DNA of 64,000 nt from an uncultured Bacteroidia bacterium (lineage in GTDB: Bacteria > Bacteroidota > Bacteroidia > NS11-12g > UBA9320). Of the stretch, positions 275 to 19,386 are shown piece after piece. Each line of letters opens with the position of its first letter. The first letter of the stretch is position 1. The DNA lies in the NCBI GenBank assembly GCA_943846675.1, contig OX044357.1, positions 1,546,010 through 1,610,009 of the forward strand. Direction: 5' to 3'. A program made the translations under genes and the position numbers. The notes under the pieces were generated by a model, which saw only the letters and a program-made list of their open reading frames with translations, made no database searches and was not told the origin of the DNA.

Positions 275-1702
275 TTAGTAGGCGTAAAATGACAGATACT
301 GTTTGCCGCCTTGCGGTGAAATACCTTCAATACGCACTTGACCTTTCATGTTTTCTAGTTTACCGACAAACTCCTGAAGGTCATTTGCCGCAACATTGTT
401 GAATTTTGTAAAAACGAAACCTTCTGGAATGTTCATCTTGAGCAATCGCCCGTTACCAACGGTAGTTACACGAATGCCGGATTCAATGGCATAATGGTCT
501 AGCTCATATTTACTGACTAATTCGAATTCAGCTTTGAGGGTTTCAGAATACAAGGAAACACGTTTTTTAAGTTCGAAGGTGCCATCCATGTTTACCAGCG
601 ATACGTCTGCTTCACGTTCTTGACCTGATCTGATGTACGTATACTTTAGTTTATCTCCAGGCCTGTAATAGGATAAAACTTCGTTGTATGACGCTTTTTG
701 AGAAATCTCTTTCCCGTCTATTTTGGTAATGACATCACCTGGTTCAAAGATCTTACTGGTGTACTTATTTGTTTGGCTAACACGACCCACAAATACCCCA
801 TTTTGAATACCGTTTACCTGATCTAGTATTTCATCATTGATGTCAACAACTTCCAGTCCGTCTAATCCACGTTGGATTTGTCCGAACTCCTTTAAATCTG
901 AAATTATTTTAACAACGATGTTGCTTGGTATGGCAAAACCATACCCTACGTAAGAGCCTGTTTTACTGGCAATGGCCGTATTGATACCAACCAGCTTGCC
1001 AGACAAATTGACCAAGGCGCCTCCACTGTTTCCTGGATTAATGGCAGCATCTGTTTGAATGAAACTCTCTATCGGAAATTGGTTTTGAACGACATTAATA
1101 TTTCTGCCTTTGGCACTCACAATTCCTGCGGTAACGGTGCTGGTAAGATTAAACGGGTTGCCAACGGCCAATACCCATTCCCCAATGTCTAAGGCGTCAC
1201 TATTGGCAATTTCCACAGGATCCAAGTTTTCTGCATCAATTTTCAGCAGGGCCAAATCAGTTGATGGCGCTGTACCAACAACTTCAGCCTTGTAATTCTT
1301 TTTCCCATTGTTTAAAACCACTTCAATGGATTGAGCACCTTTAATAACGTGGTTATTCGTAACGATGTACCCATCTTTTGAAATTATAACGCCTGACCCC
1401 GTACTTGAGACTTTACCGATACTACCAAAAGGGTCGATGTCGAAAAACCAGAACGAATTCCTTCGCACGGCTTCAGCTTCCGTTTTGATAAACACAACAG
1501 AAGGGTTCGCAATTTTTGATGCTTCAACGAAGTTTACCGCTCCTGAAGACGACGCTTGATATTTAATGGGTTGTGCATCGTGGTTGCCAGTTTGCACTTC
1601 AATAATTTGCGTATGCTTAAACTGTTTTGAAAAGATATAGGCTCCAGTTAAGGATGTTAGGACACTAACCAGTATCGCTATTACGAGAATTCTTTTATTC
1701 AT
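275..1702 (-). CDS. htrA: HtrA/DegP/DegQ-family periplasmic serine endoprotease with PDZ domain(s)
   Basis: 475 aa with an N-terminal signal/TM segment and a trypsin-like core (GSGVIISKDGYIVTNNHVI, GNSGGALVN catalytic-Ser motif). C-terminal PDZ-like regions follow, the overall Do/HtrA architecture. Confidence 0.85.
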   Translation of the reverse strand: MNKRILVIAILVSVLTSLTGAYIFSKQFKHTQIIEVQTGNHDAQPIKYQASSSGAVNFVEASKIANPSVVFIKTEAEAVRRNSFWFFDIDPFGSIGKVSSTGSGVIISKDGYIVTNNHVIKGAQSIEVVLNNGKKNYKAEVVGTAPSTDLALLKIDAENLDPVEIANSDALDIGEWVLAVGNPFNLTSTVTAGIVSAKGRNINVVQNQFPIESFIQTDAAINPGNSGGALVNLSGKLVGINTAIASKTGSYVGYGFAIPSNIVVKIISDLKEFGQIQRGLDGLEVVDINDEILDQVNGIQNGVFVGRVSQTNKYTSKIFEPGDVITKIDGKEISQKASYNEVLSYYRPGDKLKYTYIRSGQEREADVSLVNMDGTFELKKRVSLYSETLKAEFELVSKYELDHYAIESGIRVTTVGNGRLLKMNIPEGFVFTKFNNVAANDLQEFVGKLENMKGQVRIEGISPQGGKQYLSFYAY

Positions 1703-1752: not shown

Positions 1753-2841
1753 CTAATTGGCTAACACTTTGGCACTGACATATAGTTTAACGATATGGTT
1801 GTCCGGATCGTTTGTATAGAGCGTAACTTCTTTTTGCGCTTGACCGGAAACAAACATAGAATCAAATTTAAGTAAGATGGTTTTAGACGCATTCGGTTGT
1901 AGCTCAGATTCAGTCAAATCAATTGTTGTACAACCACAGTGTGTTTCAACTTTTAGAATTTTAAGCACTGATTTTCCTGTATTGGATATGTTTACCTGAC
2001 GGGTAGCTGTGGCTCCTTCTTGCATGGTGCCAAAATCAAATTCCGTCGTAGATATTTTAAGCTTGGGTGCATTTTTTCTTTCCTTTTTGGACAGTTTTGA
2101 AAAGTCACTTTTGATGAAAAATGCCAGCTTTACAGCCTTAAGTGGAAATGACTTGTCATTCGTTTTAAACACAATTTCTGTGTTAACCAGTCCATAGTCT
2201 TTCACTTTTTCTGCGTCTATATGTATTACGACGGCCACGGACTCACCAGGATTAAGGGTTTGTTTGGGCATGTCATAGGTTACATATTCAGGTTTTCTTA
2301 AAACGCCGTTAAACTTTAATGGCAGATTGTACTCGTTTACAAAAAGGACCGTATCCGTGTAGGTGCCTGCGTTAATTATATCTCCTAAGGCAATGGTGTT
2401 TTTAGACTGTCTTATATACCCAAACTGACCTGGGTAAACTTTACTTAAGTCTTGTTCAACAGGTTCTTTAATGATGCCTTTAATGGTAAGTATTTTAGAC
2501 ATGATTACATTGTAATTCGCAAAAATTTCGATTGATTTATCTACTTCACCAGCCAAGTGGGTAGGGTCAAACGTTGCTGTTATGATGCCTTTTTGACCAG
2601 GTTTGATGGGGTGCTCTGGCCATGATGGTACCGTGCAGCCACAGCTTGCTTTGACATCTCGAATTTGAAAGTCGATTGGGCTGTTGTTGGTGAAAATATA
2701 CGTTGCGTTTATTTTTTGATCTCCAAACTTGACTGTTCCGAAGTTGTACTCTTCAGATTCAAATGGTATTTCACTGTCGTCAACTTGCGCAAAAGTGACT
2801 AAAGCAATGGTTGTAAACAAAAAGGTAAAAATGCTTTTCAT
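1753..2841 (-). CDS. secreted DUF1573-repeat protein (two SCGCT-motif Ig-like domains)
   Basis: 362 aa with a signal peptide and two copies of the DUF1573 signature (ASCGCTVPSWP...IKPGQKGIITATFD and ETHCGCTTIDL...NASKTILLKFD). These are typical of Bacteroidota DUF1573 proteins. Confidence 0.7.
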   Translation of the reverse strand: MKSIFTFLFTTIALVTFAQVDDSEIPFESEEYNFGTVKFGDQKINATYIFTNNSPIDFQIRDVKASCGCTVPSWPEHPIKPGQKGIITATFDPTHLAGEVDKSIEIFANYNVIMSKILTIKGIIKEPVEQDLSKVYPGQFGYIRQSKNTIALGDIINAGTYTDTVLFVNEYNLPLKFNGVLRKPEYVTYDMPKQTLNPGESVAVVIHIDAEKVKDYGLVNTEIVFKTNDKSFPLKAVKLAFFIKSDFSKLSKKERKNAPKLKISTTEFDFGTMQEGATATRQVNISNTGKSVLKILKVETHCGCTTIDLTESELQPNASKTILLKFDSMFVSGQAQKEVTLYTNDPDNHIVKLYVSAKVLAN

Positions 2842-3075: not shown

Positions 3076-3409
3076 AGAATAGACTTGATTATCCCTAGCA
3101 GGTAGGGGGAATCAGATTGTTATCGAACTTTTAAATCTGAGGTCTACAATCTATTTTGAGCGTTTTAAATAACACAGTAAAGAAATAATATTAAAAGATG
3201 GTAATAGTTATGAGAACATGATTAGTCTAACTACATTCTCACTATATCGGTGGCGCTTGAACATTGAAGTAGTTTCCAAAGACAAATGTAAAGATTTAGT
3301 AACTTGCCATAGTTAATGCAACAGAAGCTGCAACAGAACCAGAGCGGAATTTAGTGTTACTATATCTATTAAAATTTGTTAGTTTGCGTCAATATTAACG
3401 TAAAATCCA

Positions 3410-6394
3410 ATGCAAAAAACGTACTTATTTATTTTACTAGCATCTTTATGCTTTCTTTCCTTTGAAACACAAGCAACCGTAATATTTGTAGACTATAGTT
3501 CTTCGGGTACTAATACTGGTGCATCCTGGACCAATGCTTACACGAGTCTTCAGTCTGCTGTTACTAATGCGGTTAGCGGAGATGAAGTATGGGTAGCCGC
3601 AGGCACATACATTCCATCTGCATATCCAGTAGGGCGAACATCTACAGATATTCGAGAGTATTCTTTTTACCTTGAGTCTGGTGTGGAGTACTACGGAGGA
3701 TTTGCAGGTACAGAAACACTAAGATCTCAACGCGATTATGCGAATAATGCCACCGTTTTGAGTGGAAATATTACAGGTAACAACTGTTACCATGTTTTGG
3801 TATCGGCTAATGAAAGCTCTGTGGTTTTAGACGGTTTTACCGTTACCGCTGGATATGCCAACGGTGGTACAAACGCAACAATAAATGGTCAATCAGGTTT
3901 TTGGACTAATAATGGAGGTGGTGTTTTCACGATTAACACCACGATGACCGTAGAGAATTGTATCATATCCAATAACACAGCTGGTTATGGTGGTGCAATT
4001 CGAGGTGTAGGGGGTACCACAACACTTACAAATTGTACACTTACTGGTAATACTGGGACTGCTCATGCGGGTGCAATAGATATGGTTGGTACTCTAGTTG
4101 TAAGTGGCTGCACATTTACCAGTAACAAGACAGCTACTAGCAGCAACGGAAATGGGGGAGCAATAAAAATTTCTGGGGGTGTTGCTACAATTTCAAATAC
4201 ATCATTTATAAGTAATGTAGGAAGAATCGGTGGTGCCATACATCATTACAGTTCGCAACTAACCATATCAACGTCTACCTTTAGTAATAATTCCGCAACA
4301 AATCATGGTGGAGCTTTATATGCTAGTCATACAGCATTTACTGTAACGAAGTGTGTTTTTGATGGAAATACTGCTACAAACAATGGTGGGGGTATCTCCA
4401 CAGGTTGGGGAGCTACTATGACTCTCAATAACTCTGTATTTAGTGAAAACACCTCTGGGTCAAGTGGAGGAGCTATCTCCAATGATATGATTAATGGTTC
4501 AGCAATCAATTGTACGTTTTATGCGAATACTGCAGCTGTTAGGGGTGGTGCTTATTCTTCAGTTTCAAACAGTATCAATGGCAAGAACTGTGTGTTTTTT
4601 GGAAACAAAAAGGGTACAAGCACGAACGTATCAGGTGCAGATACGTATGGTGGATCATTCACCTATTCTTTAACGCAAAGCAATAGCAACTTCAGCAGTG
4701 GAACAGGTATTGTAAACAATCAAGACCCATTATTCATCAATGCAAGTGACCCAGATGGAGCAGATAATGTATGGATGACGGCAGATGATGGATTAAGTTT
4801 TTTTAGCAATTCTCCTGCTTACGGTGTAGGAACAAGCTCAGGCGCTCCTTCTACCGATATTACGGGTGCTTCACGAGCGTCATCTCCATCTATGGGAGCC
4901 TATGAAGGTTTTTCTTACACGCGGTATTTAGTAGATATTGACGCTACGGGCACCGGTGCAGGTACAAGTTGGACTAATGCCTATACAGGGCTTCAAGACG
5001 CTATAGATGCATCCTCAGTAGGGGATGAAATATGGGTCGCAGAAGGTACATATATACCCAATGTAATTCCTCAATTTCAGGTTACATCTACCGACAATAG
5101 ACATAAAACATTTGCCATAAACAAAAATATAGCAATTTATGGTGGATTTGATGGTACTGAATCCGTCCTATCGCAAAGGGACGCTAAATTAAACATTACT
5201 GTATTAAGCGGAGATCTTGGAACTATTGGTACAGTATCAGATAATTGCTTCCATGTTGTGATGACTGCTAATTTAAATTCAACTGCAATCATCGATGGAT
5301 TTACAATTCAAGATGGTAATGCAAACGGAGGTAACACAACAGATCAGTATGGTGGTAGAAACTTTGCAAGAGAACTAGGAGGGGGAATTGCTAGCAATTT
5401 TTCTTCACCTACTCTTTCCAATCTAATCATCAAAAACAATAGGGCAAAAATTGGAGCAGGTGTCAGTAACAGCGTTTCCAGTTCATATCTTATTAATTTA
5501 ACTTTCGTAGACAATATTGCTAATGAAAAAGGAGGGGGAGTAGCTAATATAACTACTGGATCTCCAAGTATTATTAATTGTGTTTTTAGTGGGAACCTAG
5601 CTGATGATTTTGGTGGTGGTATATACTCTGAAAACTCACCTACAATAACCAATTGCACCTTTTTCAATAACAAAGCAACTACCACTTCACAAGGCGGTGG
5701 TGGTGTATATGCAATAAATGCAGGAACTACTACGGTATCAAATTGTATATTTTTTGGAAATAAAATAGGCTCATCTACGACTAATGTTGGTTCAGATATT
5801 AAAAACGGTACTGGTCATACAACCACTGTAGACTACAGTATGGTACAACTTGCTAGCGGAAGTTATACCTCTGGAAACACCAATGCCCTCACATCTGCAA
5901 CCAGTATGGTCTATAACCAAGACCCATTATTCAGCGGTCATGGTGGTCCAGATGGAGTAGATAATGTATGGATGACTGAGGATGACGGACTCAGATTAAA
6001 TAGTAATAGCCCTGCAGTAGATGCGGGACTTAGTAGTGCCATAAGTGGGTATTCTACAGATATTGTAGGTACTGCTCGTGTGGTGAATACTAACGTAAAT
6101 ATGGGAGCTTATGAGGTTCTTTGTTCTGAAACGACTAAAACAATAACAGCAAATGTATGCGATAGCTACACCTCTCCAAGTGGAAAGACTTGGATAACAA
6201 GCAACACGTATTCAGATACGATAGCAAACACTGCGGGTTGTGATAGTGTTATCACGGTGAACCTTACGGTTCGCGATAAGACGACTGAAACGATAACAGC
6301 AAATGTATGCGATAGCTATACCTCTCCAAGTGGAAAAACTTGGACAACAAGCAACACGTATTCAGATACCATTCCAAACGACTGCGGGTTGTGA
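3410..6394 (+). CDS. N-terminal ORF piece of the frameshifted giant beta-helix protein (signal peptide, two Pmp-like beta-helix blocks, 2-Cys modules)
   Basis: 994-aa ORF. It carries repeated GGAI / CTFTSN / CVFDGN / SVFSEN motifs and two copies of the block-ending motif NQDPLF...DGxDNVWMTxDDGL...MGAYE. It terminates at CGL*, where the paralog reads on as NTAGCDS. Confidence 0.7.
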   Translation: MQKTYLFILLASLCFLSFETQATVIFVDYSSSGTNTGASWTNAYTSLQSAVTNAVSGDEVWVAAGTYIPSAYPVGRTSTDIREYSFYLESGVEYYGGFAGTETLRSQRDYANNATVLSGNITGNNCYHVLVSANESSVVLDGFTVTAGYANGGTNATINGQSGFWTNNGGGVFTINTTMTVENCIISNNTAGYGGAIRGVGGTTTLTNCTLTGNTGTAHAGAIDMVGTLVVSGCTFTSNKTATSSNGNGGAIKISGGVATISNTSFISNVGRIGGAIHHYSSQLTISTSTFSNNSATNHGGALYASHTAFTVTKCVFDGNTATNNGGGISTGWGATMTLNNSVFSENTSGSSGGAISNDMINGSAINCTFYANTAAVRGGAYSSVSNSINGKNCVFFGNKKGTSTNVSGADTYGGSFTYSLTQSNSNFSSGTGIVNNQDPLFINASDPDGADNVWMTADDGLSFFSNSPAYGVGTSSGAPSTDITGASRASSPSMGAYEGFSYTRYLVDIDATGTGAGTSWTNAYTGLQDAIDASSVGDEIWVAEGTYIPNVIPQFQVTSTDNRHKTFAINKNIAIYGGFDGTESVLSQRDAKLNITVLSGDLGTIGTVSDNCFHVVMTANLNSTAIIDGFTIQDGNANGGNTTDQYGGRNFARELGGGIASNFSSPTLSNLIIKNNRAKIGAGVSNSVSSSYLINLTFVDNIANEKGGGVANITTGSPSIINCVFSGNLADDFGGGIYSENSPTITNCTFFNNKATTTSQGGGGVYAINAGTTTVSNCIFFGNKIGSSTTNVGSDIKNGTGHTTTVDYSMVQLASGSYTSGNTNALTSATSMVYNQDPLFSGHGGPDGVDNVWMTEDDGLRLNSNSPAVDAGLSSAISGYSTDIVGTARVVNTNVNMGAYEVLCSETTKTITANVCDSYTSPSGKTWITSNTYSDTIANTAGCDSVITVNLTVRDKTTETITANVCDSYTSPSGKTWTTSNTYSDTIPNDCGL

Positions 6395-6699
6395 TAGTGT
6401 TATCACGGTGAACCTTACGGTGAGATATAAAAGTTCCTTCTCGTTCGCAGAAACGGTATATGAAACCTTTACATCGCCAAGCGGAAAAACATGGACAAAT
6501 TCAGGCACATATTTAGACACAATACCTAATGACGTTAATTGTGACAGCATCATAACGGTCGATTTGACTGTAATCAACAAGTTATTTGTCGATACAGATG
6601 GTTCATCAGGAACAGGAAAATCATGGGGGACTTCAATGAAAACACCTAGATGACGCCATCAAAGTAGCTAATGCAACGGGCAATCATGCTGAAATATGG

Positions 6700-9048
6700 G
6701 TGCGCAAGGGCATGTATTATCCTGGCGGACAATCGAGCAGCAATCGAGATTCAGCGTTCCTAATTACCAATCCAAATGTTGAATTATTAGGAGGTTTTTC
6801 TGGAACAGAAACAGAGCCTGGTCAACGTAATCAAACGGCTAACCCAACCATATTGTGTGGTGATATTGGCAAAGCAAACGATTCCTCGGATAATGCATAT
6901 CACGTATTGATTATTGCACCAAACGGATCAGACATCGGACCTAATTTTAAACTAGATGGGTTAACCTTTAAAAACGGTAACGCTGACGGGAACTCAAAAT
7001 ACACCTACGAAAATAGAGATGTATATCAATCAGAGGGTGGCTCAATAGTTATTCTGGGTAGTGGTAAGTCTGGCCAAGAGATTAGTCCAACGATTACCAA
7101 TTGTCATTTTGAAGGCAACTACGGCGATTATGGCTCGATTTACATACGCGTGCCTAATGGTAAGTCTTTTGCAACCATTAGCCATTGTACGTTTAAAAAC
7201 AACCATTCAATTTATGGCGCTATCTTTAACGATGGTCAAGCAGGTGAAGTATCTCCAAACATTGTAAACTGTGCCTTTGATGGCAACACAAGTGCCACTT
7301 CGGGTGCAGCGATATACAACTATGGTTATGGAGGCAAATGCTCTCCTACAATCACAAGTTGTGTGTTTAACAGCAACAGTGCTAGTTCAATGGGAGGAGC
7401 AATCTATAACACGGGTTATGGTGGAACATCCAATCCAGTGATCACAAACGCTACCTTCCATGCAAACGCAGCTGGTTCTCATGCAGGAGCGATGTATAGC
7501 TTTGGTAACAGCGGAACATGCCAACCTAAGGTGACCAACTCTATCTTTTACAAAAACACAAAAGGTGGAGATGTGGACCATAAGTTTAGTGAGTTCTATA
7601 ACTATGCAGCGTATCCATACATAAAAAATAGTTCGATGCAACGTGCAAGCTCAACATACACAGCAAGCACATTCAACAGCTTAAACAGCGGAACAAACAA
7701 CATCTTCCAGACCAATCCAAACTTTGAGGCGATTGCCGATGGCAATGGTGCGGATGATGTTTGGAGAACAGGAGATGATGGATTGAGATTATCTTCCTCA
7801 AGTACCAACTTGTTAAACGGTGGAACCAATACAGGTGCCCCAACTGCGGATATCTTAGGAAATCAGCGTATGGGAACAACCGACATGGGTGCTTACGAGT
7901 ATGTCAACTGTGGCTTAAATGTTAAACTAGCTACTTCGGTTACCACTCATACAGCAACGCAAAGTGTTGTGGATGGTAATTTTGTATGCTACTGTAACAG
8001 CGACAATGAATTACTCTTGGCTCTTGACACCAATGGAACTGGGGCGGTGATTACACCTAGTCAGGTAAAACTATACATTGGCAATCCATCAACCTTGAGT
8101 TACAACTCTGCTGGCGGTATGATAACCAACACGGCTGGTGGTGTGATACTAGAAAGACGTTGGGATGTGGAACCAACGACTCAACCAACTTCACCAGTAA
8201 CGGTTCGTTACTTCTACACCAACGACAACTACGACGACATTGTAACGGCTATGGCTGGATTAACATCGCCTACAACCATTACTTCGCCAAGTCAACTACA
8301 GTTTTACAAGGTAACAGGCGGCTCATCGGCAACCTTCCCGAACCCACATGATACGGGTGTAACGGGTATTGTACTGACCAACGGAACAACAGCCAGCACA
8401 ACAGTGTGGGTTAATGGAACACATGGTGTACAAGACCATACAGCAGAATACCTAGTAAGCACGTTCTCCGGTGGTGGAGGCGGAGGCGGGGGTGGATCTA
8501 GCCCACTACCAGTGGAACTGATCCAGTTCGAAGCAAGCCCAGCAGCTAGTCATACAGCAGACCTTACATGGAAGACCGCATCAGAGCTAAACAACTCACA
8601 TTTTGTAGTTGAACGTAGCTATGATGGTAGAGACTTCCAGGCAGCAGCAATTGTTCAAGGAAACGGTACCACACAAAACGTGATTACCTACAACCACAAC
8701 GACAATACGATTGATCTAGCACAAAACACTGTGTTCTATCGATTACGTCAGGTGGACTTTGATGGCACCACGGCTTACTCACCAGTAAGACGAGTAGACT
8801 TTGAAGGCAGCATCATACCAAACAGCGTAACGCTTTATCCAAACCCAACAAAAGGAACGGTTACGGTTAGCTTTACAGACGATGAGGCTGAAAGTCATGC
8901 GATTAAAGTAATTGACAACCTCGGAAGAGAGCTGTACAAGCAAACCTTCGACGGACAAGCCATAGAGCTTGATTTGTCGAGCCAAGCAACGGGCATCTAC
9001 TTTATCATTTTAGATTCTGGTGAATCCTTTAAAGTGATTAAACAGTAG
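6700..9048 (+). CDS. C-terminal ORF piece of the same frameshifted gene (beta-helix block, FN3/Ig-like domain, T9SS sorting domain); about 99% identical to 15486..17834
   Basis: 782-aa translation is nearly identical to the last 782 aa of the 2133-aa paralog. It ends in a G9 linker plus LYPNPTKGTVTVSF...IYFIILDSGESFKVIKQ, a T9SS type-A CTD. Confidence 0.7.
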   Translation: MRKGMYYPGGQSSSNRDSAFLITNPNVELLGGFSGTETEPGQRNQTANPTILCGDIGKANDSSDNAYHVLIIAPNGSDIGPNFKLDGLTFKNGNADGNSKYTYENRDVYQSEGGSIVILGSGKSGQEISPTITNCHFEGNYGDYGSIYIRVPNGKSFATISHCTFKNNHSIYGAIFNDGQAGEVSPNIVNCAFDGNTSATSGAAIYNYGYGGKCSPTITSCVFNSNSASSMGGAIYNTGYGGTSNPVITNATFHANAAGSHAGAMYSFGNSGTCQPKVTNSIFYKNTKGGDVDHKFSEFYNYAAYPYIKNSSMQRASSTYTASTFNSLNSGTNNIFQTNPNFEAIADGNGADDVWRTGDDGLRLSSSSTNLLNGGTNTGAPTADILGNQRMGTTDMGAYEYVNCGLNVKLATSVTTHTATQSVVDGNFVCYCNSDNELLLALDTNGTGAVITPSQVKLYIGNPSTLSYNSAGGMITNTAGGVILERRWDVEPTTQPTSPVTVRYFYTNDNYDDIVTAMAGLTSPTTITSPSQLQFYKVTGGSSATFPNPHDTGVTGIVLTNGTTASTTVWVNGTHGVQDHTAEYLVSTFSGGGGGGGGGSSPLPVELIQFEASPAASHTADLTWKTASELNNSHFVVERSYDGRDFQAAAIVQGNGTTQNVITYNHNDNTIDLAQNTVFYRLRQVDFDGTTAYSPVRRVDFEGSIIPNSVTLYPNPTKGTVTVSFTDDEAESHAIKVIDNLGRELYKQTFDGQAIELDLSSQATGIYFIILDSGESFKVIKQ

Positions 9049-9091
9049 TGAGAAAGTATCGTATTACTACACAAATACAATAAGAGAAGGC

Positions 9092-9122
9092 CATTCGTTT
9101 TACGGATGGCTTTTTTGTTGTT
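9092..9122 (+). terminator. rho-independent terminator downstream of giant gene 1 (identical copy at 17878..17908)
   Basis: ggccattcgttttacggatggcc is a stem-loop with one U-G wobble, followed by tttttt, about 45 nt after the stop codon. Confidence 0.6.
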
Positions 9123-9319
9123 CAATTGATTTGAAAATATAAAAAGTGAAGTAAACAAGATATCGGGTTCTGTTGCATTAACTTCCCCTGAATCCAGAAG
9201 TAACCAAATTCGATGTTTATTAAGCTGCTAAAGACTTAAATGTAGCAAACCAGTTTGACTTTGAATCTTTGATTTGGTCCTTTCTGTTGATGCAATCTAA
9301 AGGACAGAACCATAAATAA

Positions 9320-11432: not shown

Positions 11433-14400
11433 TTGGATTTGAGATTTCAAAAATTCAAGTCGCAAAATTTAAGTAGTATTATGAAATCATTTTACGTAGC
11501 TCGGCTAACAGCTGTACTTTTTTCCATTATTTGTTTTTCTTTTTCAAACACCGTAGCACAGTCATCAGGTGTGGTCAGCACGCTCGCTGGTAGTGGTGCA
11601 TCTGGCTATACAGATGGTACAGGGACATCGGCTCAGTTTTCCTATCCTATAGGAGTAGCGGTCGATGGCGCTGGAAATGTGTATGTAGCGGATCAGAATA
11701 ACCACCGCATTCGAAAAATAACTACATCAGGTGTGGTCAGCACGCTCGCTGGTAGTGGTACATCTGGCAATGCAGATGGTACAGGGACATCGGCTCAGTT
11801 TAACAATCCTTATGGAGTAGCGGTCGATGGCGCTGGAAATGTGTATGTAGCGGATTACAATAACCACCGCATTCGAAAAATAACTGCATCAGGTGTGGTC
11901 AGCACGCTCGCTGGTAGTACTCAGGGCAATACAGATGGTACAGGGACATCGGCTCAGTTTAACTCTCCTAGAGGAGTAGCGGTCGATGGCGCTGGAAATG
12001 TGTATGTAGCGGATGAGTATAACCACCGCATTCGAAAAATAACTGCATCAGGTGTGGTCGGCACCCTCGCTGGTAGTGCATCTGGCTATACAGATGGTAC
12101 AGGGACATCGGCTAAGTTTAAAAATCCTTATGGAGTAGCGGTCGATGGCGCTGGAAATGTGTATGTAGCGGATAGGTCAAACCACCGCATTCGAAAAATA
12201 ACTACATCAGGTGTGGTCAGCACGCTCGCTGGTAGTTCTCAGGGCTATACAGATGGTACAGGGACATCGGCTCAGTTTTACTATCCTAGCGGAGTAGCGG
12301 TCGATAGCGCTGGAAATGTGTATGTAGCGGATAAGGATAACCACCGCATTCGAAAAATAACTACATCAGGTGTGGTCAGCACGCTCGCTGGTAGTGGTAC
12401 ATCTGGCTATGCAGATGGTACAGGGACATCGGCTAAGTTTAACTATCCTTTCGGAGTAGCGGTCGATGGCGCTGGAAATGTGTATGTAGCGGATTACGTT
12501 AACCACCGCATTCGAAAAATAGGTCAGGCAACTTGCACAACACCCACAACACCATCACTAAGTGCATCACCTGATTCAATATGTAATGGGAATTCCAGTA
12601 CCTTGACCGTATCTGGATCAAAGAATGCTGCTTCAACTTGGAAGGTATATTCAGGTGGATGTGGAACTGGATTAGTTGATTCAATTACTGGAACTGGGAC
12701 TACATTATCCGTGTCACCAACCTCTACAACGAACTATTATGTCAGAGAAGAAGGTTGTGTAACAGCTGGAAGTTGCGGAACGACTGTTGTTACAGTGACA
12801 GCAGCTTCTTATAACACTATTACGGTAACGGTATGCGATACGTACACCTCTCCAAGTGGCAGGCATACCTGGTTTGTAACAGGAATATATAAAGACACGA
12901 TTCCAAACGCAGCAGGTTGCGATAGTATTCTAACAATAAACTTAACGGTAATTGCAACACCAATAGTTACTGTCAGCACGCTCGCTGGTAGTACATATGG
13001 CTATACAGATGGTACAGGGACATCGGCTAAGTTTTACAATCCTACTGGAGTAGCGGTCGATGGCGCTGGAAATGTGTATGTAGCGGATCGGTATAACCAC
13101 CGCATTCGAAAAATAACTACATCAGGTGTGGTCAGCACGCTCGCTGGTAGTGGTACATCTGGCAATGCAGATGGTACAGGGACATCGGCTCAGTTTTCCT
13201 ATCCTAGCGGAGTAGCGGTCGATAGCGCTGGAAATGTGTTTGTAGCGGATCGCAATAACCACCGCATTCGAAAAATAACTGCATCAGGTGTGGTCAGCAC
13301 GCTCGCTGGTAGTACTCAGGGCTATACAGATGGTACAGGGACATCGGCTAAGTTTGACTCACCTACAGGAGTAGCGGTCGATGGCGCTGGAAATGTGTAT
13401 GTAGCGGATCTGTATAACCACCGCATTCGAAAAATAACTGCATCAGGTGTGGTCAGCACCCTCGCTGGTAGTGCATCTGGCTATACAGATGGTACAGGGA
13501 CATCGGCTAAGTTTAAAAATCCTACAGGAGTAGCGGTCGATGGCGCTGGAAATGTGTATGTAGCGGATTACAATAACCACGGCATTCGAAAAATAACTAC
13601 ATCAGGTGTGGTCAGCACGCTCGCTGGTATTGCATATGGCTATACAGATGGTACAGGGACATCGGCTAAGTTTAAAAATCCTTATGGAGTAGCGGTCGAT
13701 GGCGCTGGAAATGTGTATGTAGCGGATCGGGATAACCACCGCATTCGAAAAATAACTACATCAGGTGTGGTCAGCACGCTCGCTGGTAGTTCTCAGGGCT
13801 ATACAGATGGTACAGGGACATCGGCTCAGTTTGCCTATCCTTTCGGAGTAGCGGTCGATGGTACTGGAAATGTGTATGTAGCGGATGAGTCAAACCACCG
13901 CATTCGAAAAATAACGTTAAGTGCTGGTAGTGCTGAAACGACTGAAACGATAACAGCAAATGTATGCGATACGTACACCTCTCCAAGTGGCAGGCATACC
14001 TGGTTTGTAACAGGAATATATAAAGACACGATTCCAAACGCAGCAGGTTGCGATAGTATTCTAACAATAAACTTAACGGTAATTGCAACACCAATAGTTA
14101 CTGTCAGCACGCTCGCTGGTAGTACTCAGGGCAATACAGATGGTACAGGGACATCGGCTCAGTTTTCCTATCCTACAGGAGTAGCGGTCGATGGCGCTGG
14201 AAATGTGTATGTAGCGGATCAGGATAACCACCGCATTCGAAAAATAACTACATCAGGTGTGGTCAGCACGCTCGCTGGTAGTGGTACACCTGGCTATACA
14301 GATGGTACAGGGACATCGGCTAAGTTTTACTTACCTATCGGAATAGCGGTCGATGGCGCTGGAAATGTGTATGTAGCGGATAGGTCAAACCACCGCATTC

Positions 14401-17400
14401 GAAAAATAACTGCATCAGGTGTGGTCAGCACCCTCGCTGGTAGTACTCAGGGCTATGCAGATGGTACAGGGACATCGGCTAAGTTTAACGTTCCTTTCGG
14501 AGTAGCGGTCGATGGCGCTGGAAATGTGTATGTAGCGGATTACAATAACCACCGCATTCGAAAAATAACTACATCAGGTGTGGTCAGCACGCTCGCTGGT
14601 AGTACATATGGCTATACAGATGGTACAGGGACATCGGCTCAGTTTGCCTATCCTTATGGAGTAGCGGTCGATGGCGCTGGAAATGTGTATGTAGCGGATA
14701 GGTCAAACCACCGCATTCGAAAAATAACTGCATCAGGTGTGGTCAGCACGCTCGCTGGTAGTTCTCAGGGCTATACAGATGGTACAGGGACATCGGCTAA
14801 GTTTTACTATCCTAGCGGAGTAGCGGTCGATGGCGCTGGAAATGTGTATGTAGCGGATCGGTCAAACCACCGCATTCGAAAAATAACTGCATCAGGTGTG
14901 GTCAGCACCCTCGCTGGTAGTACATATGGCTATACAGATGGTACAGGGACATCGGCTAAGTTTTACTTACCTACAGGAGTAGCGGTCGATGGCGCTGGAA
15001 ATGTGTATGTAGCGGATTACGTTAACCACCGCATTCGAAAAATAACGTTAAGTGCTGGTAGTGCTGAAACAACAGAAACGATAACAGCAAATGTATGCGA
15101 TAGCTATACCTCTCCAAGTGGAAAAACTTGGACAACAAGCAACACGTATTCAGATACGATTCCAAACACTGCGGGTTGTGATAGTGTTATCACGGTGAAC
15201 CTTACGGTGAGATATAAAAGTTCCTTCTCGTTCGCAGAAACGGTATATGAAACCTTTACATCGCCAAGCGGAAAAACATGGACAAATTCAGGCACATATT
15301 TAGACACAATACCTAATGACGTTAATTGTGACAGCATCATAACGGTCGATTTGACTGTAATCAACAAGTTATTTGTCGATACAGATGGTTCATCAGGAAC
15401 AGGAAAATCATGGGGGACTTCAATGAAAAACCTAGATGACGCCATCAAAGTAGCTAATGCAACGGGCAATCATGCTGAAATATGGGTGCGCAAGGGCATG
15501 TATTATCCTGGCGGACAATCGAGCAGCAATCGAGATTCAGCGTTCCTAATTACCAATCCAAATGTTGAATTATTAGGAGGTTTTTCTGGAACAGAGACAG
15601 AGCCTGGTCAACGAAATCAAACGGCCAATCCAACCATATTGTGTGGAGATATCGGTACAACAAACGATTCCTCTGACAATGTATACCACGTATTGATTAT
15701 TGCACCAAACGGATCAGACATCGGACCTAATTTTAAACTAGATGGGTTAACCTTTAAAAACGGTAACGCTGACGGGAACTCAAAATACACCTACGAAAAT
15801 AGAGATGTATATCAATCAGAGGGTGGCTCAATAGTTATTCTGGGTAGTGGTAAGTCTGGTCAAGAGATTAGTCCAACGATTACCAATTGTCATTTTGAAG
15901 GAAATTATGGCGATTATGGCTCGATTTACATACGCGTGCCTAATGGTAAGTCTTTTGCAACCATTAGCCATTGTACGTTTAAAAACAACCATTCAATTTA
16001 TGGCGCTATCTTTAACGATGGTCAAGCAGGTGAAGTATCTCCAAACATTGTAAACTGTGCCTTTGATGGCAACACAAGTGCCACTTCGGGTGCAGCGATA
16101 TACAACTATGGTTATGGAGGCAAATGCTCTCCTACAATCACAAGTTGTGTGTTTAACAGCAACAGTGCTAGTTCAATGGGAGGAGCAATCTATAACACGG
16201 GTTATGGTGGAACATCCAATCCAGTGATCACAAACGCTACCTTCCATGCAAACGCAGCTGGTTCTCATGCAGGAGCGATGTATAGCTTTGGTAACAGCGG
16301 AACATGCCAACCTAAGGTGACCAACTCTATCTTTTACAAAAACACAAAAGGTGGAGATGATGACCATAAGTTTAGTGAGTTCTATAACTATGCAGCGTAT
16401 CCATACATAAAAAATAGTTCGATGCAACGTGCAAGCTCAACATACACAGCAAGCACATTCAACAGCTTAAATAGTGGAACAAACAACATCTTCCAGACCA
16501 ATCCAAACTTTGAGGCGATTGCCGATGGCAATGGTGCGGATGATGTTTGGAGAACAGGAGATGATGGATTGAGATTATCTTCCTCAAGTACCAACTTGTT
16601 AAACGGTGGAACCAATACAGGTGCCCCAACTGCGGATATCTTAGGAAATCAGCGTATGGGAACAACCGACATGGGTGCTTACGAGTATGTCAACTGTGGC
16701 TTAAATGTTAAACTAGCTACTTCGGTTACCACTCATACAGCAACGCAAAGTGTTGTGGATGGTAATTTTGTATGCTACTGTAACAGCGACAATGAATTAC
16801 TCTTGGCTCTTGACACCAATGGAACTGGGGCGGTGATTACACCTAGTCAGGTAAAACTATACATTGGCAATCCATCAACCTTGAGTTACAACTCTGCTGG
16901 CGGTATGATAACCAACACGGCTGGTGGTGTGATACTAGAAAGACGTTGGGATGTGGAACCAACGACTCAACCAACTTCACCAGTAACGGTTCGTTACTTC
17001 TACACCAACGACAACTACGACGACATTGTAACGGCTATGGCTGGATTAACATCGCCTACAACCATTACTTCGCCAAGTCAACTACAGTTTTACAAGGTAA
17101 CAGGCGGCTCATCGGCAACCTTCCCGAACCCACATGATACGGGTGTAACGGGTATTGTACTGACCAACGGAACAACAGCCAGCACAACAGTGTGGGTTAA
17201 TGGAACACATGGTGTACAAGACCATACAGCAGAATACCTAGTAAGCACGTTCTCCGGTGGTGGAGGCGGAGGCGGGGGTGGATCTAGCCCACTACCAGTG
17301 GAACTGATCCAGTTCGAAGCAAGCCCAGCAGCTAGTCATACAGCAGACCTTACATGGAAGACCGCATCAGAGCTAAACAACTCACATTTTGTAGTTGAAC

Positions 17401-17834
17401 GTAGCTATGATGGTAGAGACTTCCAGGCAGCAGCAATTGTTCAAGGAAACGGTACCACACAAAACGTGATTACCTACAACCACAACGACAATACGATTGA
17501 TCTAGCACAAAACACTGTGTTCTATCGATTACGTCAGGTGGACTTTGATGGCACCACGGCTTACTCACCAGTAAGACGAGTAGACTTTGAAGGCAGCATC
17601 ATACCAAACAGCGTAACGCTTTATCCAAACCCAACAAAAGGAACGGTTACGGTTAGCTTTACAGACGATGAGGCTGAAAGTCATGCGATTAAAGTAATTG
17701 ACAACCTCGGAAGAGAGCTGTACAAGCAAACCTTCGACGGACAAGCCATAGAGCTTGATTTGTCGAGCCAAGCAACGGGTATCTACTTTATCATTTTAGA
17801 TTCTGGTGAATCCTTTAAAGTGATTAAACAGTAG
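11433..17834 (+). CDS. giant T9SS-secreted surface protein: NHL-repeat arrays + 2-Cys modules + Pmp-like beta-helix + FN3/Ig-like + T9SS type-A CTD
   Basis: 2133 aa with a signal peptide. It has about 19 copies of a 47-aa NHL repeat (SGVVSTLAGS..GYTDGTGTSA.F..P.GVAVDGAGNVYVAD..NHRIRKIT) in three blocks separated by a Cys-rich Ig-like segment and 2-Cys TITANVCD[ST]YTSPSG modules. The C-terminal 930 aa match 6125..9048 apart from the two single-base insertions in that copy, and end in LYPNP...IYFIILD...KVIKQ. Confidence 0.85.
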   Translation: MDLRFQKFKSQNLSSIMKSFYVARLTAVLFSIICFSFSNTVAQSSGVVSTLAGSGASGYTDGTGTSAQFSYPIGVAVDGAGNVYVADQNNHRIRKITTSGVVSTLAGSGTSGNADGTGTSAQFNNPYGVAVDGAGNVYVADYNNHRIRKITASGVVSTLAGSTQGNTDGTGTSAQFNSPRGVAVDGAGNVYVADEYNHRIRKITASGVVGTLAGSASGYTDGTGTSAKFKNPYGVAVDGAGNVYVADRSNHRIRKITTSGVVSTLAGSSQGYTDGTGTSAQFYYPSGVAVDSAGNVYVADKDNHRIRKITTSGVVSTLAGSGTSGYADGTGTSAKFNYPFGVAVDGAGNVYVADYVNHRIRKIGQATCTTPTTPSLSASPDSICNGNSSTLTVSGSKNAASTWKVYSGGCGTGLVDSITGTGTTLSVSPTSTTNYYVREEGCVTAGSCGTTVVTVTAASYNTITVTVCDTYTSPSGRHTWFVTGIYKDTIPNAAGCDSILTINLTVIATPIVTVSTLAGSTYGYTDGTGTSAKFYNPTGVAVDGAGNVYVADRYNHRIRKITTSGVVSTLAGSGTSGNADGTGTSAQFSYPSGVAVDSAGNVFVADRNNHRIRKITASGVVSTLAGSTQGYTDGTGTSAKFDSPTGVAVDGAGNVYVADLYNHRIRKITASGVVSTLAGSASGYTDGTGTSAKFKNPTGVAVDGAGNVYVADYNNHGIRKITTSGVVSTLAGIAYGYTDGTGTSAKFKNPYGVAVDGAGNVYVADRDNHRIRKITTSGVVSTLAGSSQGYTDGTGTSAQFAYPFGVAVDGTGNVYVADESNHRIRKITLSAGSAETTETITANVCDTYTSPSGRHTWFVTGIYKDTIPNAAGCDSILTINLTVIATPIVTVSTLAGSTQGNTDGTGTSAQFSYPTGVAVDGAGNVYVADQDNHRIRKITTSGVVSTLAGSGTPGYTDGTGTSAKFYLPIGIAVDGAGNVYVADRSNHRIRKITASGVVSTLAGSTQGYADGTGTSAKFNVPFGVAVDGAGNVYVADYNNHRIRKITTSGVVSTLAGSTYGYTDGTGTSAQFAYPYGVAVDGAGNVYVADRSNHRIRKITASGVVSTLAGSSQGYTDGTGTSAKFYYPSGVAVDGAGNVYVADRSNHRIRKITASGVVSTLAGSTYGYTDGTGTSAKFYLPTGVAVDGAGNVYVADYVNHRIRKITLSAGSAETTETITANVCDSYTSPSGKTWTTSNTYSDTIPNTAGCDSVITVNLTVRYKSSFSFAETVYETFTSPSGKTWTNSGTYLDTIPNDVNCDSIITVDLTVINKLFVDTDGSSGTGKSWGTSMKNLDDAIKVANATGNHAEIWVRKGMYYPGGQSSSNRDSAFLITNPNVELLGGFSGTETEPGQRNQTANPTILCGDIGTTNDSSDNVYHVLIIAPNGSDIGPNFKLDGLTFKNGNADGNSKYTYENRDVYQSEGGSIVILGSGKSGQEISPTITNCHFEGNYGDYGSIYIRVPNGKSFATISHCTFKNNHSIYGAIFNDGQAGEVSPNIVNCAFDGNTSATSGAAIYNYGYGGKCSPTITSCVFNSNSASSMGGAIYNTGYGGTSNPVITNATFHANAAGSHAGAMYSFGNSGTCQPKVTNSIFYKNTKGGDDDHKFSEFYNYAAYPYIKNSSMQRASSTYTASTFNSLNSGTNNIFQTNPNFEAIADGNGADDVWRTGDDGLRLSSSSTNLLNGGTNTGAPTADILGNQRMGTTDMGAYEYVNCGLNVKLATSVTTHTATQSVVDGNFVCYCNSDNELLLALDTNGTGAVITPSQVKLYIGNPSTLSYNSAGGMITNTAGGVILERRWDVEPTTQPTSPVTVRYFYTNDNYDDIVTAMAGLTSPTTITSPSQLQFYKVTGGSSATFPNPHDTGVTGIVLTNGTTASTTVWVNGTHGVQDHTAEYLVSTFSGGGGGGGGGSSPLPVELIQFEASPAASHTADLTWKTASELNNSHFVVERSYDGRDFQAAAIVQGNGTTQNVITYNHNDNTIDLAQNTVFYRLRQVDFDGTTAYSPVRRVDFEGSIIPNSVTLYPNPTKGTVTVSFTDDEAESHAIKVIDNLGRELYKQTFDGQAIELDLSSQATGIYFIILDSGESFKVIKQ

Positions 17835-17877
17835 TGAGAAAGTATCGTATTACTACACAAATACAATAAGAGAAGGC

Positions 17878-17908
17878 CATTCGTTTTACGGATGGCTTTT
17901 TTGTTGTT
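17878..17908 (+). terminator. rho-independent terminator (duplicate of 9092..9122)
   Basis: Identical hairpin plus T-run within the duplicated cassette. Confidence 0.6.
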
Positions 17909-18043
17909 CAATTGATTTGAAAATATAAAAAGTGAAGTAAACAAGATATCGGGTTGGTGAAAGTATTTACGGATATAAGTTGGTTTAAGACCAGTAGCTA
18001 GTTACGAATACTAGTTTTATATATTACTAACGCGTAATATTAT

Positions 18044-19379: not shown

Positions 19380-19386
19380 AAGAATA

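What the first reader, a model, noticed from the sequence alone, without database searches (positions are those of the whole stretch)
6130..6600. Recurrent ~50-aa two-cysteine module (TITANVCD[ST]YTSPSG..W......Y.DTIPN..GCDS[IV][IL]T[IV][ND]LTV) used as an interdomain joint
The module occurs three times in tandem in gene 1 (6133..6590; the frameshifts are in and after the second copy). It occurs twice identically in gene 2 between the NHL blocks (12826..12978 and 13943..14095), and twice more before the beta-helix (15068..15370). Each copy has exactly two conserved Cys residues about 32 residues apart, and a conserved SPSG..W motif. It looks like a small disulfide-stapled beta-sandwich or linker domain that I cannot assign to a named family. 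It appears to be the junction at which different N-terminal arrays are spliced onto the constant region. Gene 1 has one extra copy exactly at the boundary of the shared cassette.
Basis: seen in the sequence. Interest (0 to 1): 0.6.

Follow-up and report, generated by a model that had tools for sequence, protein, structure and literature searches.

The report
Disulfide-chained stalk repeat of Bacteroidota surface proteins
The ~50-residue module is real and is one unit of a very common but unnamed tandem repeat of secreted Bacteroidota surface proteins. Its two cysteines most likely bond to the neighbouring units rather than to each other, and in this gene family it forms a variable-length stalk where different heads are joined to a common anchor.

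Summary
The window holds exactly seven module copies, three in gene 1 and four in gene 2, and none elsewhere.

Two of the seven, the copy next to the beta-helix in each gene, have only one Cys (first Cys replaced by Tyr). The Cys spacing is 27-28 residues, not about 32.

It belongs to a very large family. A profile search found 30,160 clusters at 50% identity, with proteins carrying up to 88 tandem copies at a 49-53 aa period. Members carry T9SS C-terminal sorting domains and come almost entirely from Bacteroidota.

Covariation contradicts an intramodule disulfide. Across 3,769 adjacent pairs, Cys1 of unit n and Cys2 of unit n+1 are lost together 25 times and singly 5 times (p = 8e-59). The two Cys of one unit are never lost together. 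This explains the conserved one-Cys cap.

Every close homolog of the constant region that reaches its N-terminal boundary has 1-4 modules just upstream, under different N-terminal domains. Paralogs in a sister genome carry up to 12-13 tandem copies at an exact 150-nt period. The "junction" reading is therefore supported. The best description is a Periscope-like, disulfide-chained stalk.

The parts
3410..9048 (+). Gene 1. It encodes a T9SS cargo protein read in three frames (3410-6394, 6303-6653, 6700-9048). Its layout is signal peptide, two PMP/choice-of-anchor-Q beta-helix regions, three modules, then the constant region.
   Evidence: ORF list, translations, Pfam and NCBIfam, frameshifts.
6122..6124 (+). 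Codon of an 'N-cap' Cys ('EVLCSETTK'), 12 residues before Cys1 of the first module of gene 1. It is inferred to partner Cys2 of that first module.
   Evidence: Sequence. Cys at -12 occurs in 14% of array-first modules and 0.1% of internal modules.
6140..6274 (+). Module copy 1 of gene 1 (two Cys). This is the extra copy just upstream of the shared cassette.
   Evidence: HMM 67.8 bits. 90% nt identity to copy 2 over the 150-nt unit and 93-94% in blastn local alignments.
6290..6428 (+). Module copy 2 of gene 1 (two Cys), split by a +1 insertion (G) at 6380. Restored, it is 99% identical in DNA to gene 2 copy C.
6447..6581 (+). Module copy 3 of gene 1. It is the one-Cys capping copy (Cys1 replaced by Tyr) and is 100% identical in DNA to gene 2 copy D.
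   Evidence: The cap is conserved in homologs.
6643..6643 (+). Second +1 insertion (C) of gene 1 relative to gene 2, at the start of the constant region.
6281..9169 (+). Shared 2.9-kb cassette in gene 1: two modules, beta-helix, unassigned domain, Gly9 linker, T9SS CTD and 120 nt of 3' flank. It is 99.07% identical to 15069-17955, with clustered mismatches.
11433..17834 (+). Gene 2, an intact 2133-aa T9SS cargo protein. Its layout is three six-blade NHL blocks (11563-12521, 12972-13915, 14103-15046), modules A-D, then the constant region.
12816..12956 (+). Module A (two Cys), standing alone between NHL block 1 plus a Cys-rich segment and NHL block 2.
   Evidence: HMM 65.9 bits.
13947..14087 (+). 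Module B (two Cys), standing alone between NHL blocks 2 and 3.
   Evidence: HMM 63.9 bits. 93% nt identity to module A.
15078..15215 (+). Module C (two Cys), the first unit of the stalk before the constant region.
   Evidence: HMM 72.4 bits.
15234..15368 (+). Module D, the one-Cys capping copy directly before the beta-helix.
   Evidence: HMM 65.4 bits. Cap conserved in homologs.
15381..17834 (+). Constant region of gene 2: PMP/choice-of-anchor-Q beta-helix, unassigned domain, Gly9 linker, and T9SS type A C-terminal sorting domain (aa 2063-2133, about 17619-17831).
   Evidence: Pfam PF18962 E = 1e-11 and TIGR04183. Homologs.

Best explanation
The module is one unit of a phylum-wide, so far unnamed tandem repeat of about 50 residues found in Bacteroidota T9SS-secreted surface proteins.

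Predicted unit structure. Each unit folds as three long beta-strands. Strand b1 ends at Cys1. A mini-hairpin and strand b2 follow. Strand b3 starts right after Gly-Cys2-Asp-Ser.

Inferred assembly. Units stack head to tail into a rod. Only three residues connect b3 of one unit to b1 of the next. Each junction is clamped by a disulfide between Cys1 of unit n and Cys2 of unit n+1. An array is therefore a chain of interlocking covalent links. The last unit needs no Cys1; this is the Tyr-substituted 'cap' seen in both genes here. The first unit can use an extra Cys 12 residues upstream, which gene 1 has.

Role in this gene family. The rod is a variable-length stalk between interchangeable distal N-terminal heads and a conserved C-terminal region. 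The heads include NHL propellers, PMP beta-helices and others. The conserved region is a beta-helix plus a T9SS sorting domain, and is presumably proximal to the cell.

DNA level. The near-identical 150-nt units serve as homologous-recombination substrates. They change copy number and splice different heads onto the constant cassette.

What is shown and what is inferred:
- Shown: family membership, abundance, period, covariation of the Cys pair, architecture in homologs, and copy-number variation.
- Inferred: that the covarying Cys form a disulfide, the rod geometry, the projection function, and recombination as the mechanism.
For: Family:
- A profile of 27 instances hits 30,160 representatives of 50%-identity clusters at E<=1e-3, and 9,005 at E<=1e-30. 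Proteins carry up to 88 copies.
- Among 5,358 instances, 92% of successive copies are spaced 40-60 aa apart, mostly 49-53. Cys2 is present in 95%, Asp in 90% and Ser in 94%.
- The only genuine Pfam or NCBIfam hit on module-rich proteins is the T9SS sorting domain.
- Taxa are almost all Bacteroidota.

Structure:
- The AlphaFold2 single unit has pLDDT 90, and the tandem pair 92.6 with a confident 3-residue linker.
- DCA recovers the b2-b3 hairpin and b1-b3 contacts.

Cys connectivity:
- In DCA on 3,390 adjacent pairs, Cys1(n)-Cys2(n+1) is the top coupling of 3,570. The intramodule pair ranks 49-88.
- In 3,769 adjacent pairs, that pair is kept together 3,739 times, lost together 25 times and lost singly 5 times (Fisher p = 7.6e-59). 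The two Cys of one unit are never lost together (0 double losses against 144 single).
- The 25 double losses form 17 sequence clusters in 16 proteins.
- In an independent set of 70 loci, 9 of 9 units lacking Cys2 are array-first and the single unit lacking Cys1 is array-last.
- An N-cap Cys sits at -12 in 14% of first units and 0.1% of internal units.
- The one-Cys cap is conserved next to the constant region in homologs down to 56% identity.

Junction and stalk:
- All close constant-region homologs that reach the boundary have 1-4 modules there, under different heads.
- A sister MAG has at least 7 paralogous loci. Arrays before the constant region have 2 (three loci), 10, 12 and 12 units, all ending in the one-Cys cap, at an exact 150-nt period.
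- Mosaic genes and clustered mismatches indicate patchy recombination.
Against: - Model coordinates are not returned by the tool, so Cys-Cys distances could not be measured. The disulfide rests on covariation, secondary structure and topology reasoning.
- Most array-terminal units still keep both Cys (94-96%). Unpaired or differently paired Cys must therefore exist.
- Modules A and B of gene 2 stand alone yet keep both Cys. Module C has no upstream partner for its Cys2.
- The covariation set is drawn from the 150 top-scoring, very repeat-rich proteins.
- The tandem model has pTM of only 0.62.
- No expression, localisation or length-variation data exist for one orthologous locus across strains. 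The copy-number evidence comes mostly from paralogs in metagenome-assembled genomes, where repeat arrays can be misassembled.
- Cell-proximal placement of the constant region assumes C-terminal anchoring after CTD cleavage, as in Porphyromonas. Many T9SS cargoes are released instead.
Confidence: 0.7

Rival explanations
1. One reading: each module is an autonomous small beta-sandwich or linker domain stapled by its own internal Cys1-Cys2 disulfide.
For: - Five of the seven window copies have two Cys, and 94.8% of family instances have both.
- Modules A and B in gene 2 stand alone and keep both Cys.
- A single unit is predicted confidently on its own.
- DCA on single instances gives a modest Cys1-Cys2 coupling, about 17th among the listed pairs.
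Against: - The two Cys of one unit are never lost together (0 of 3,769 pairs). Cys1(n) and Cys2(n+1) are lost together 25 times against 5 single losses.
- In pair DCA the intramodule coupling ranks 49-88 against rank 1 for the inter-unit pair.
- Cys1 lies at the end of b1 and Cys2 at the start of b3. The b1-b3 contacts (1-39, 4-42, 3-43) and the N-cap Cys at the start of b1 imply these strands run in parallel, which puts the two Cys at opposite ends of the unit.
- The one-Cys cap is conserved.
Confidence: 0.12
2. The arrays are themselves the functional adhesive or lectin-like surface (for example glycan or particle binding) rather than a passive spacer. Copy number then tunes avidity instead of reach.
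For: - Some proteins are up to 92% module with only a sorting domain besides.
- Exposed positions are rich in Thr, Ser, Asn and conserved aromatics (Y, W).
- The Periscope literature notes that stalk domains can also bind ligands (PMC8201768).
Against: - No similarity to any known carbohydrate-binding or adhesive family.
- DCA places the conserved aromatics (W11, Y16) in contact with L38, i.e. in the core.
- In the window family the modules sit between recognisable heads and an anchor, which is a stalk position.
Confidence: 0.2
3. The module is a divergent member of an already described Ig-like stalk family (Rib, PKD, Big or SprB repeat) that profile searches miss.
For: - One of 27 instances gives PKD at E = 0.04.
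Against: - No Pfam or NCBIfam hit reaches threshold for any of 27 instances or 6 module-rich proteins.
- The unit has about half the strands of an Ig fold.
- Its defining G-C-D-S motif and inter-unit Cys pairing are not features of those families (stated from knowledge of those families, not tested here).
Confidence: 0.08
4. The sharing between gene 1 and gene 2, and the copy-number differences, are assembly artefacts of a repeat-rich metagenome-assembled genome rather than biology.
For: - Indels and in-frame stops are seen in gene 1, L001 and L004.
- L006 shows an odd NHL-to-mid-helix join.
Against: - The same architecture recurs in independent assemblies and in distant homologs at 56-63% identity.
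- The arrays have exact 150-nt periods with diverged units (86% matches, 0% indels), not collapsed identical copies.
- The module family itself is found in over 30,000 clusters.
Confidence: 0.05

Closest known systems
Periscope Proteins (SasG, Rib, Sgo_0707 SHIRT, CdrA; Whelan et al. 2021, PMC8201768)
   Same: - Surface proteins with tandem arrays of highly similar small folded domains encoded by near-identical DNA repeats.
- The domain N and C termini lie at opposite ends, giving a rod.
- Repeat number varies, here from 2 to 12-13 among paralogs.
- A functional domain sits N-terminal to the stalk and the anchor is C-terminal.
- Intragenic recombination is the proposed driver.
   Different: - The hosts are Bacteroidota using a T9SS sorting domain instead of LPXTG or type I/V secretion. 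That paper does not mention Bacteroidetes (0 occurrences).
- The unit is smaller (about 50 aa) and has no match to known stalk folds.
- Junctions are inferred to be covalently clamped by inter-unit disulfides.
- Variation is so far documented among paralogs and mosaic genes rather than at one orthologous locus.
- The repeats also act as splice points for different heads.
Rib domain (PF08428; PDB 6s5y, 8yke)
   Same: - It is a tandem stalk unit of surface proteins with variable number.
   Different: - Rib is about 79 aa, is an atrophied Ig fold and occurs in Gram-positive LPXTG proteins.
- The module has a conserved G-C-D-S motif and a Cys pair.
Fibrillar adhesin stalk domains (Monzon et al., PMC8286594, PMC9210967)
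   Same: The architecture is head - repetitive stalk - anchor. The stalk is compositionally biased (Thr, Ser, Asn) and beta-rich.
   Different: The module is not among the known stalk-domain HMMs (no Pfam hit). The 2022 survey text has no mention of Bacteroidetes, T9SS or disulfides.
Calcium-rigidified Ig-like repeats of RTX adhesins (for example MpAFP RII, PMC7493085)
   Same: Tandem beta repeats whose inter-repeat junctions are specifically stiffened to extend the protein from the surface.
   Different: There the stiffening is by Ca2+ ions in the linkers of ~100-aa Ig-like domains. Here it is inferred to be a covalent disulfide across each junction of ~50-aa units.

Membership tests
Unnamed ~50-aa 'C...GCDS...LTV' tandem repeat of Bacteroidota (defined here by profile A3) | Match to the profile, with Cys1, Gly-Cys2-Asp-Ser and the L-T-[VI] strand. 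| tested here: met
   All seven window copies score 64-72 bits when intact.
Unnamed ~50-aa 'C...GCDS...LTV' tandem repeat of Bacteroidota (defined here by profile A3) | Tandem period of 49-53 residues. | tested here: met
   Window tandem copies are 150 nt (50 aa) apart. The family modal period is 51 aa.
Unnamed ~50-aa 'C...GCDS...LTV' tandem repeat of Bacteroidota (defined here by profile A3) | Cys1(n)-Cys2(n+1) pairing, with terminal units free to drop the outward-facing Cys. | tested here: met
   Family covariation. Both window arrays end in a unit lacking Cys1, and gene 1 has the -12 N-cap Cys. The chemical bond itself was not observed.
T9SS type A cargo (host proteins) | C-terminal sorting domain (PF18962 / TIGR04183) and an N-terminal signal peptide. 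| tested here: met
   PF18962 E = 1e-11 to 4e-12 and TIGR04183 above cutoff for gene 2 and the gene 1 C-terminal ORF. Hydrophobic N-termini are visible. The signal peptide was not formally predicted.
Periscope Proteins (PMC8201768) | Tandem array of highly similar folded domains encoded by highly identical DNA repeats. | tested here: met
   90-99% nt identity between window two-Cys copies. In L009, 10.7 copies at period 150 with 86% matches. Folded unit with pLDDT 90-93.
Periscope Proteins (PMC8201768) | Repeat-number variation of the same gene between strains. | tested here: inconclusive
   Arrays of 2-13 units among paralogs of a sister MAG, and 4 against 2 in L001 versus window gene 2. These loci are mosaic or non-syntenic, so orthology is not established.
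Periscope Proteins (PMC8201768) | Elongated rod that projects an N-terminal functional domain from the cell surface. | not testable with these tools
   Supported only by predicted secondary structure, the 3-residue linkers and the domain order.
Rib domain (PF08428) | Match to the Pfam model and an Ig-derived fold of about 79 aa. | tested here: not met
   [not shown]
SprB repeat (PF13573), PKD (PF00801/PF18911) and other Ig-like stalk families | Match to the family HMM at or above the gathering threshold. | tested here: not met
   0 of 27 instances reach threshold. The best is PKD_4 at E = 0.04 in a single instance. SprB is never listed. Module-rich proteins give only the sorting domain.

The most novel reading that the evidence does not exclude
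An undescribed, phylum-wide domain family builds surface-protein stalks in which every repeat is covalently latched to the next by an interlocking disulfide (Cys1 of unit n to Cys2 of unit n+1), giving a mechanically reinforced rod. Dedicated N-cap (Cys at -12) and C-cap (Cys1 to Tyr) variants terminate the chain. The same 150-nt units serve as recombination joints that let a Bacteroidia genome shuffle heads and stalk lengths across a multigene family of T9SS cargo.
Probability: 0.5. Interest if true: 0.7.

Novelty: new variant of a known kind. Interest (0 to 1): 0.58.

Why it matters
- Giant repeat proteins are among the largest and least annotated genes of environmental Bacteroidota. This repeat occurs in more than 30,000 protein clusters yet has no Pfam or NCBIfam model, no solved structure and no literature hit in the library searched. 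A family model would annotate a large amount of sequence with no current assignment.
- The covariation result gives a specific, cheaply testable structural prediction: inter-repeat disulfide chaining with defined caps. That would be an unusual way to rigidify a bacterial stalk.
- The gene family shows how near-identical repeats can act as both a length regulator and a splice site for domain shuffling. This extends the Periscope Protein concept to T9SS cargo of Bacteroidota.

Tried and rejected
- Pfam-A and NCBIfam scans were run on the window proteins, single and double modules, 27 diverse instances and six module-rich proteins. There were no real hits except NHL, PMP/choice-of-anchor Q and the T9SS sorting domain. 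Many spurious summed hits had 0 significant stretches.
- A PDB sequence search found only chance hits (E about 1) to ribosomal uS5.
- The word-indexed homolog search with the 51-aa profile returned only fragments under 100 aa. It was useful for building the profile but not for architecture.
The narrower A2 worked.
- Literature searches for the motif strings and for T9SS repeat or cysteine descriptions found nothing relevant.
- The position-in-array Cys statistics on the top-150 set were only weakly informative, because many HMM-defined array ends are not true ends. The cleaner test was co-loss in adjacent pairs, plus the independent locus set.
- Association of the N-cap Cys with retention of Cys2 was not significant (p = 0.12).
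- I considered that modules A and B of gene 2 might still stack and pair across the looped-out NHL propellers, whose termini are adjacent. The data cannot test this: there is no co-loss signal for modules separated by more than 46 aa.
- Cys-Cys distances could not be measured because model coordinates are not exposed.
Full report
**Observation**

Gene 1 (3410-9048, +) is read in three frames, and gene 2 (11433-17834, +) is an intact 2133-aa ORF.

A profile HMM of the module, scanned over all six frames of the 64-kb window, finds exactly seven copies and none outside these two genes:

| Copy | Coordinates | Note |
|---|---|---|
| Gene 1, copy 1 | 6140-6274 | two Cys |
| Gene 1, copy 2 | 6290-6388 + 6375-6428 | split by a frameshift |
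| Gene 1, copy 3 | 6447-6581 | one Cys |
| Gene 2, A | 12816-12956 | two Cys |
| Gene 2, B | 13947-14087 | two Cys |
| Gene 2, C | 15078-15215 | two Cys |
| Gene 2, D | 15234-15368 | one Cys |

Intact copies score 64-72 bits.

The two genes share a 2,889-nt block, 6281-9169 = 15069-17955, at 99.07% identity. It begins exactly at the start of gene 1's second copy. Gene 1's first copy is a 90-93% identical extra unit immediately upstream.

Relative to gene 2, gene 1 has two single-base insertions: G at 6380 inside copy 2, and C at 6643.

Four details of the finding need correction:
- The copy adjacent to the beta-helix in each gene (6447-6581 and 15234-15368) has only one Cys. The first Cys is Tyr.
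- The Cys are 27-28 residues apart, not about 32.
- The second frameshift lies after the third copy.
- The two inter-NHL copies are 93% identical in DNA and identical in protein only from the first Cys onward.

In gene 2 the module is also part of a 1131-nt super-repeat of six NHL blades plus one module.

**Host proteins**

Both proteins end in a T9SS type A sorting domain (PF18962 and TIGR04183). Both carry PMP/choice-of-anchor-Q beta-helix repeats. Gene 2 has 18 NHL repeats.

**Is the module a known family?**

- Pfam-A (models up to 2025) and NCBIfam 20.0 give nothing for single or double modules, for 27 diverse instances scanned at E<=10, or for six module-rich proteins. In those six only the sorting domain is a real hit.
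- PDB sequences give only chance matches.
- Full-text searches, including literal motif strings, found no description.
- Source annotations name such proteins only by their other domains, or as hypothetical.

**How common is it?**

The exhaustive profile search of 1.84 billion cluster representatives gave these counts:

| E-value cutoff | Proteins |
|---|---|
| 1e-3 | 30,160 |
| 1e-10 | 20,115 |
| 1e-30 | 9,005 |

Proteins reach 7,061 aa and 88 copies.

In the 152 retrieved sequences there are 5,358 instances. Of successive copies, 92% are 40-60 aa apart, mostly 49-53 with a mode of 51. The consensus is C-D-S-Y-T-W-N-G-x-T-Y-T-x-S-G-T-Y-x-D-T-L-x-N-A-x-G-C-D-S-V-V-T-L-N-L-T-V.

The window's S-P-S-G variant is a minority subtype (46 of 5,358).

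A scan of species-representative genomes returned 224 confirmed stretches. The 80 kept are almost all from Bacteroidota: Flavobacteriales, Crocinitomicaceae, Saprospiraceae, Chitinophagaceae, Bacteroidales and the isolate Salibacter halophilus. A few bins carry labels outside the phylum and are probably mis-binned.

**Cysteine connectivity**

Model coordinates are not exposed, so I tested connectivity by covariation.

*Contacts within one unit.* Mean-field DCA on 4,145 non-redundant instances recovers an antiparallel b2-b3 hairpin and b1-b3 contacts.

*Couplings between neighbours.* DCA on 3,390 adjacent unit pairs separates intra-unit from inter-unit couplings:
- The strongest of all 3,570 couplings is Cys1 of unit n with Cys2 of unit n+1 (score 5.84).
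- The intramodule Cys pair ranks 49th-88th.
- Cys2(n)-Cys1(n+1) ranks 68th.

*Direct counts.* Among 3,769 unique adjacent pairs:

| Cys1(n) and Cys2(n+1) | Pairs |
|---|---|
| Both present | 3,739 |
| Both absent | 25 |
| Only one absent | 5 |

The Fisher p-value is 7.6e-59. The two Cys of the same unit are never absent together (0 double losses against 144 single losses). The 25 double losses fall into 17 sequence clusters in 16 proteins, so they represent repeated independent events.

*Array ends.* The outward-facing Cys is lost in 4-13% of cases at array ends, against about 0.1% internally.

*Independent replication.* In 70 loci from other genomes, all 401 adjacent pairs keep the Cys1(n)/Cys2(n+1) pair. 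All nine units without a Cys in the Cys2 column are the first of an array; in three of these the Cys is merely shifted by one or two positions. The one unit without Cys1 is the last of an array.

*N-cap.* Array-first units carry an extra Cys exactly 12 residues before Cys1 in 14% of cases. Internal units do so in 0.1%.

*Geometry.* These results fit the predicted secondary structure. Strand b1 ends at Cys1. Strand b3 begins just after Cys2. Only three residues join b3(n) to b1(n+1). The b1-b3 couplings (1-39, 4-42, 3-43) and the inter-unit coupling 43(n)-30(n+1) place the end of b1(n) next to the b2-b3 loop of unit n+1.

*Inference.* Units stack head to tail, and each junction is clamped by a Cys1(n)-Cys2(n+1) disulfide.

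*Fit to the window.* This accounts for what is seen in the two genes:
- Both arrays end in a unit that has Tyr in place of Cys1.
- Gene 1 has the -12 N-cap Cys (codon 6122-6124, 'EVLCSETTK'). Every Cys of its three-unit array is therefore accounted for.

*What remains unexplained.* Cys2 of module C, and both Cys of the stand-alone modules A and B in gene 2, have no obvious partner. They may be free. They may instead pair across the looped-out propellers, whose termini are adjacent. I could not test this.

**The junction hypothesis**

I searched with the 817-aa constant region (15381-17831) and located modules in the hits.

All eleven close homologs (56-100% identity) that reach the N-terminal boundary have 1-4 modules ending within about 20 residues of the start of the constant region. 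The last module is always the cap variant lacking Cys1, usually with Tyr there. The N-terminal parts differ:

| N-terminal part | Homologs |
|---|---|
| NHL | P0195, P0196, P0285 |
| Glycine-rich PF12810 | P0197, P0206 |
| Lamin-tail PF00932 | P0199, P0202 |
| Region with a PF19081 Ig_7 annotation | P0200 |
| Unassigned region | P0198 |
| PMP/choice-of-anchor Q | P0212, window gene 1 |

Nearly all distant beta-helix homologs (below 40% identity) lack modules, and none has one at this boundary.

The nearest genome is the MAG 'uncultured Bacteroidia bacterium AE_MB266', at 97-98% DNA identity to the cassette. It has at least seven paralogous loci. In six of them (L002, L003, L004, L005, L007, L009) the array before the constant region has 2, 2, 2, 10, 12 and 12 units, at an exact 150-nt period and always ending in the same cap. 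The seventh, L006, joins an NHL block directly to the middle of the beta-helix. TRF reports L009 as 10.7 copies with 86% matches and 0% indels.

Genes there, and in a second assembly (L001), are mosaics of gene 1-like and gene 2-like parts.

The 25 mismatches between the two window cassettes are clustered. Thirteen lie in 6810-6900 and none in 7690-8993, as expected for patchy conversion.

The architecture 'variable head - variable number of modules - cap - constant region' is therefore established. Recombination within the near-identical units, as the mechanism producing it, is a well-supported inference.

**Comparison with known systems**

Functionally the closest concept is the Periscope Protein class. 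Those proteins have variable-length rods of near-identical tandem domains that project an N-terminal functional domain, with repeat DNA identity enabling recombination (PMC8201768).

That paper does not mention Bacteroidetes. The fibrillar-adhesin survey text I checked mentions neither Bacteroidetes, T9SS nor disulfides.

The differences here are the T9SS context, the small unassigned fold, the inferred covalent inter-unit latch with dedicated caps, and the use of the repeats as head-swapping joints in a multigene family.

Membership in the Rib, PKD, SprB or other Ig-like families was tested by HMM and fold search and is not met.

**Caveats**

- The disulfide is inferred, not observed.
- The covariation set is dominated by very repeat-rich proteins.
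- Most terminal units keep both Cys.
- Copy-number evidence comes from metagenome assemblies, where indels and occasional misjoins are visible. For the same reason, gene 1's frameshifts may be sequencing errors rather than pseudogenisation.
- The cell-proximal position of the constant region assumes C-terminal anchoring after sorting-domain cleavage.

**Verdict**

- The feature is real and is much more than chance.
- The 'two-Cys, internally stapled sandwich' idea does not hold.
- The module is one unit of a very abundant, unnamed Bacteroidota stalk repeat whose units are most likely chained by inter-unit disulfides.
- I rate it a new variant of a known kind (tandem stalk of variable-length surface proteins), with moderate to good interest.

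Noticed in passing
window 19387-21015 (and 15077-20947): A large serine recombinase (Resolvase + Recombinase domains) lies 1.5 kb downstream of gene 2. The segment 15077-20947 (cassette, a 323-aa ORF and the recombinase) is 99.1-99.9% identical to L001, but the flanks on both sides are not syntenic. The unit may move or rearrange as a block.
   Followed up: partly
window 6380 and 6643; L001 10001-10041; L004 about 1939: Single-base indels and in-frame stops interrupt these repeat genes in the window and in two related assemblies. Long-read or MAG consensus errors are a live alternative to true pseudogenisation of gene 1.
   Followed up: partly
window 12522-12815: A Cys-rich segment with 5 Cys lies between NHL block 1 and module A ('ATCTTPTTPSLSASPDSIC...EEGCVTAGSC'). 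It has no Pfam hit. Together with Cys2 of module A the Cys count becomes even, so it may supply the partner for that Cys.
   Followed up: no
L006 about 3316-4030: In one paralog of the sister MAG an NHL block joins directly to the middle of the beta-helix (window position 15951). The modules and the first ~190 residues of the constant region are skipped. This is either a deletion or a misassembly.
   Followed up: no
window 17000-17100 (gene 2) and 8210-8300 (gene 1): A run of nine glycines separates the unassigned domain after the beta-helix from a ~100-aa domain that precedes the sorting domain.
   Followed up: no
window 30191-33748 (-), 1753-2841 (-), 275-1702 (-): Other envelope or secreted proteins lie nearby. 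They are an M4 thermolysin-like protease with PKD domains and a T9SS sorting domain, a DUF1573/HYDIN-like Ig protein, and an HtrA-type trypsin-PDZ protease.
   Followed up: partly
L018, L023, L029, L073: A few module-bearing contigs belong to MAGs labelled Henriciella, Saccharospirillaceae, Synechococcus and Parcubacteria. This is probably binning contamination by Bacteroidota contigs, but it was not checked.
   Followed up: no
P0198 residues 28-130: In one homolog, two modules follow the signal peptide directly, with a Cys at -12 ('AQGCSNTLSTINPDVC'). A third, cap-type module sits 270 residues later, before the constant region. Modules can therefore flank a head domain on both sides.
   Followed up: no
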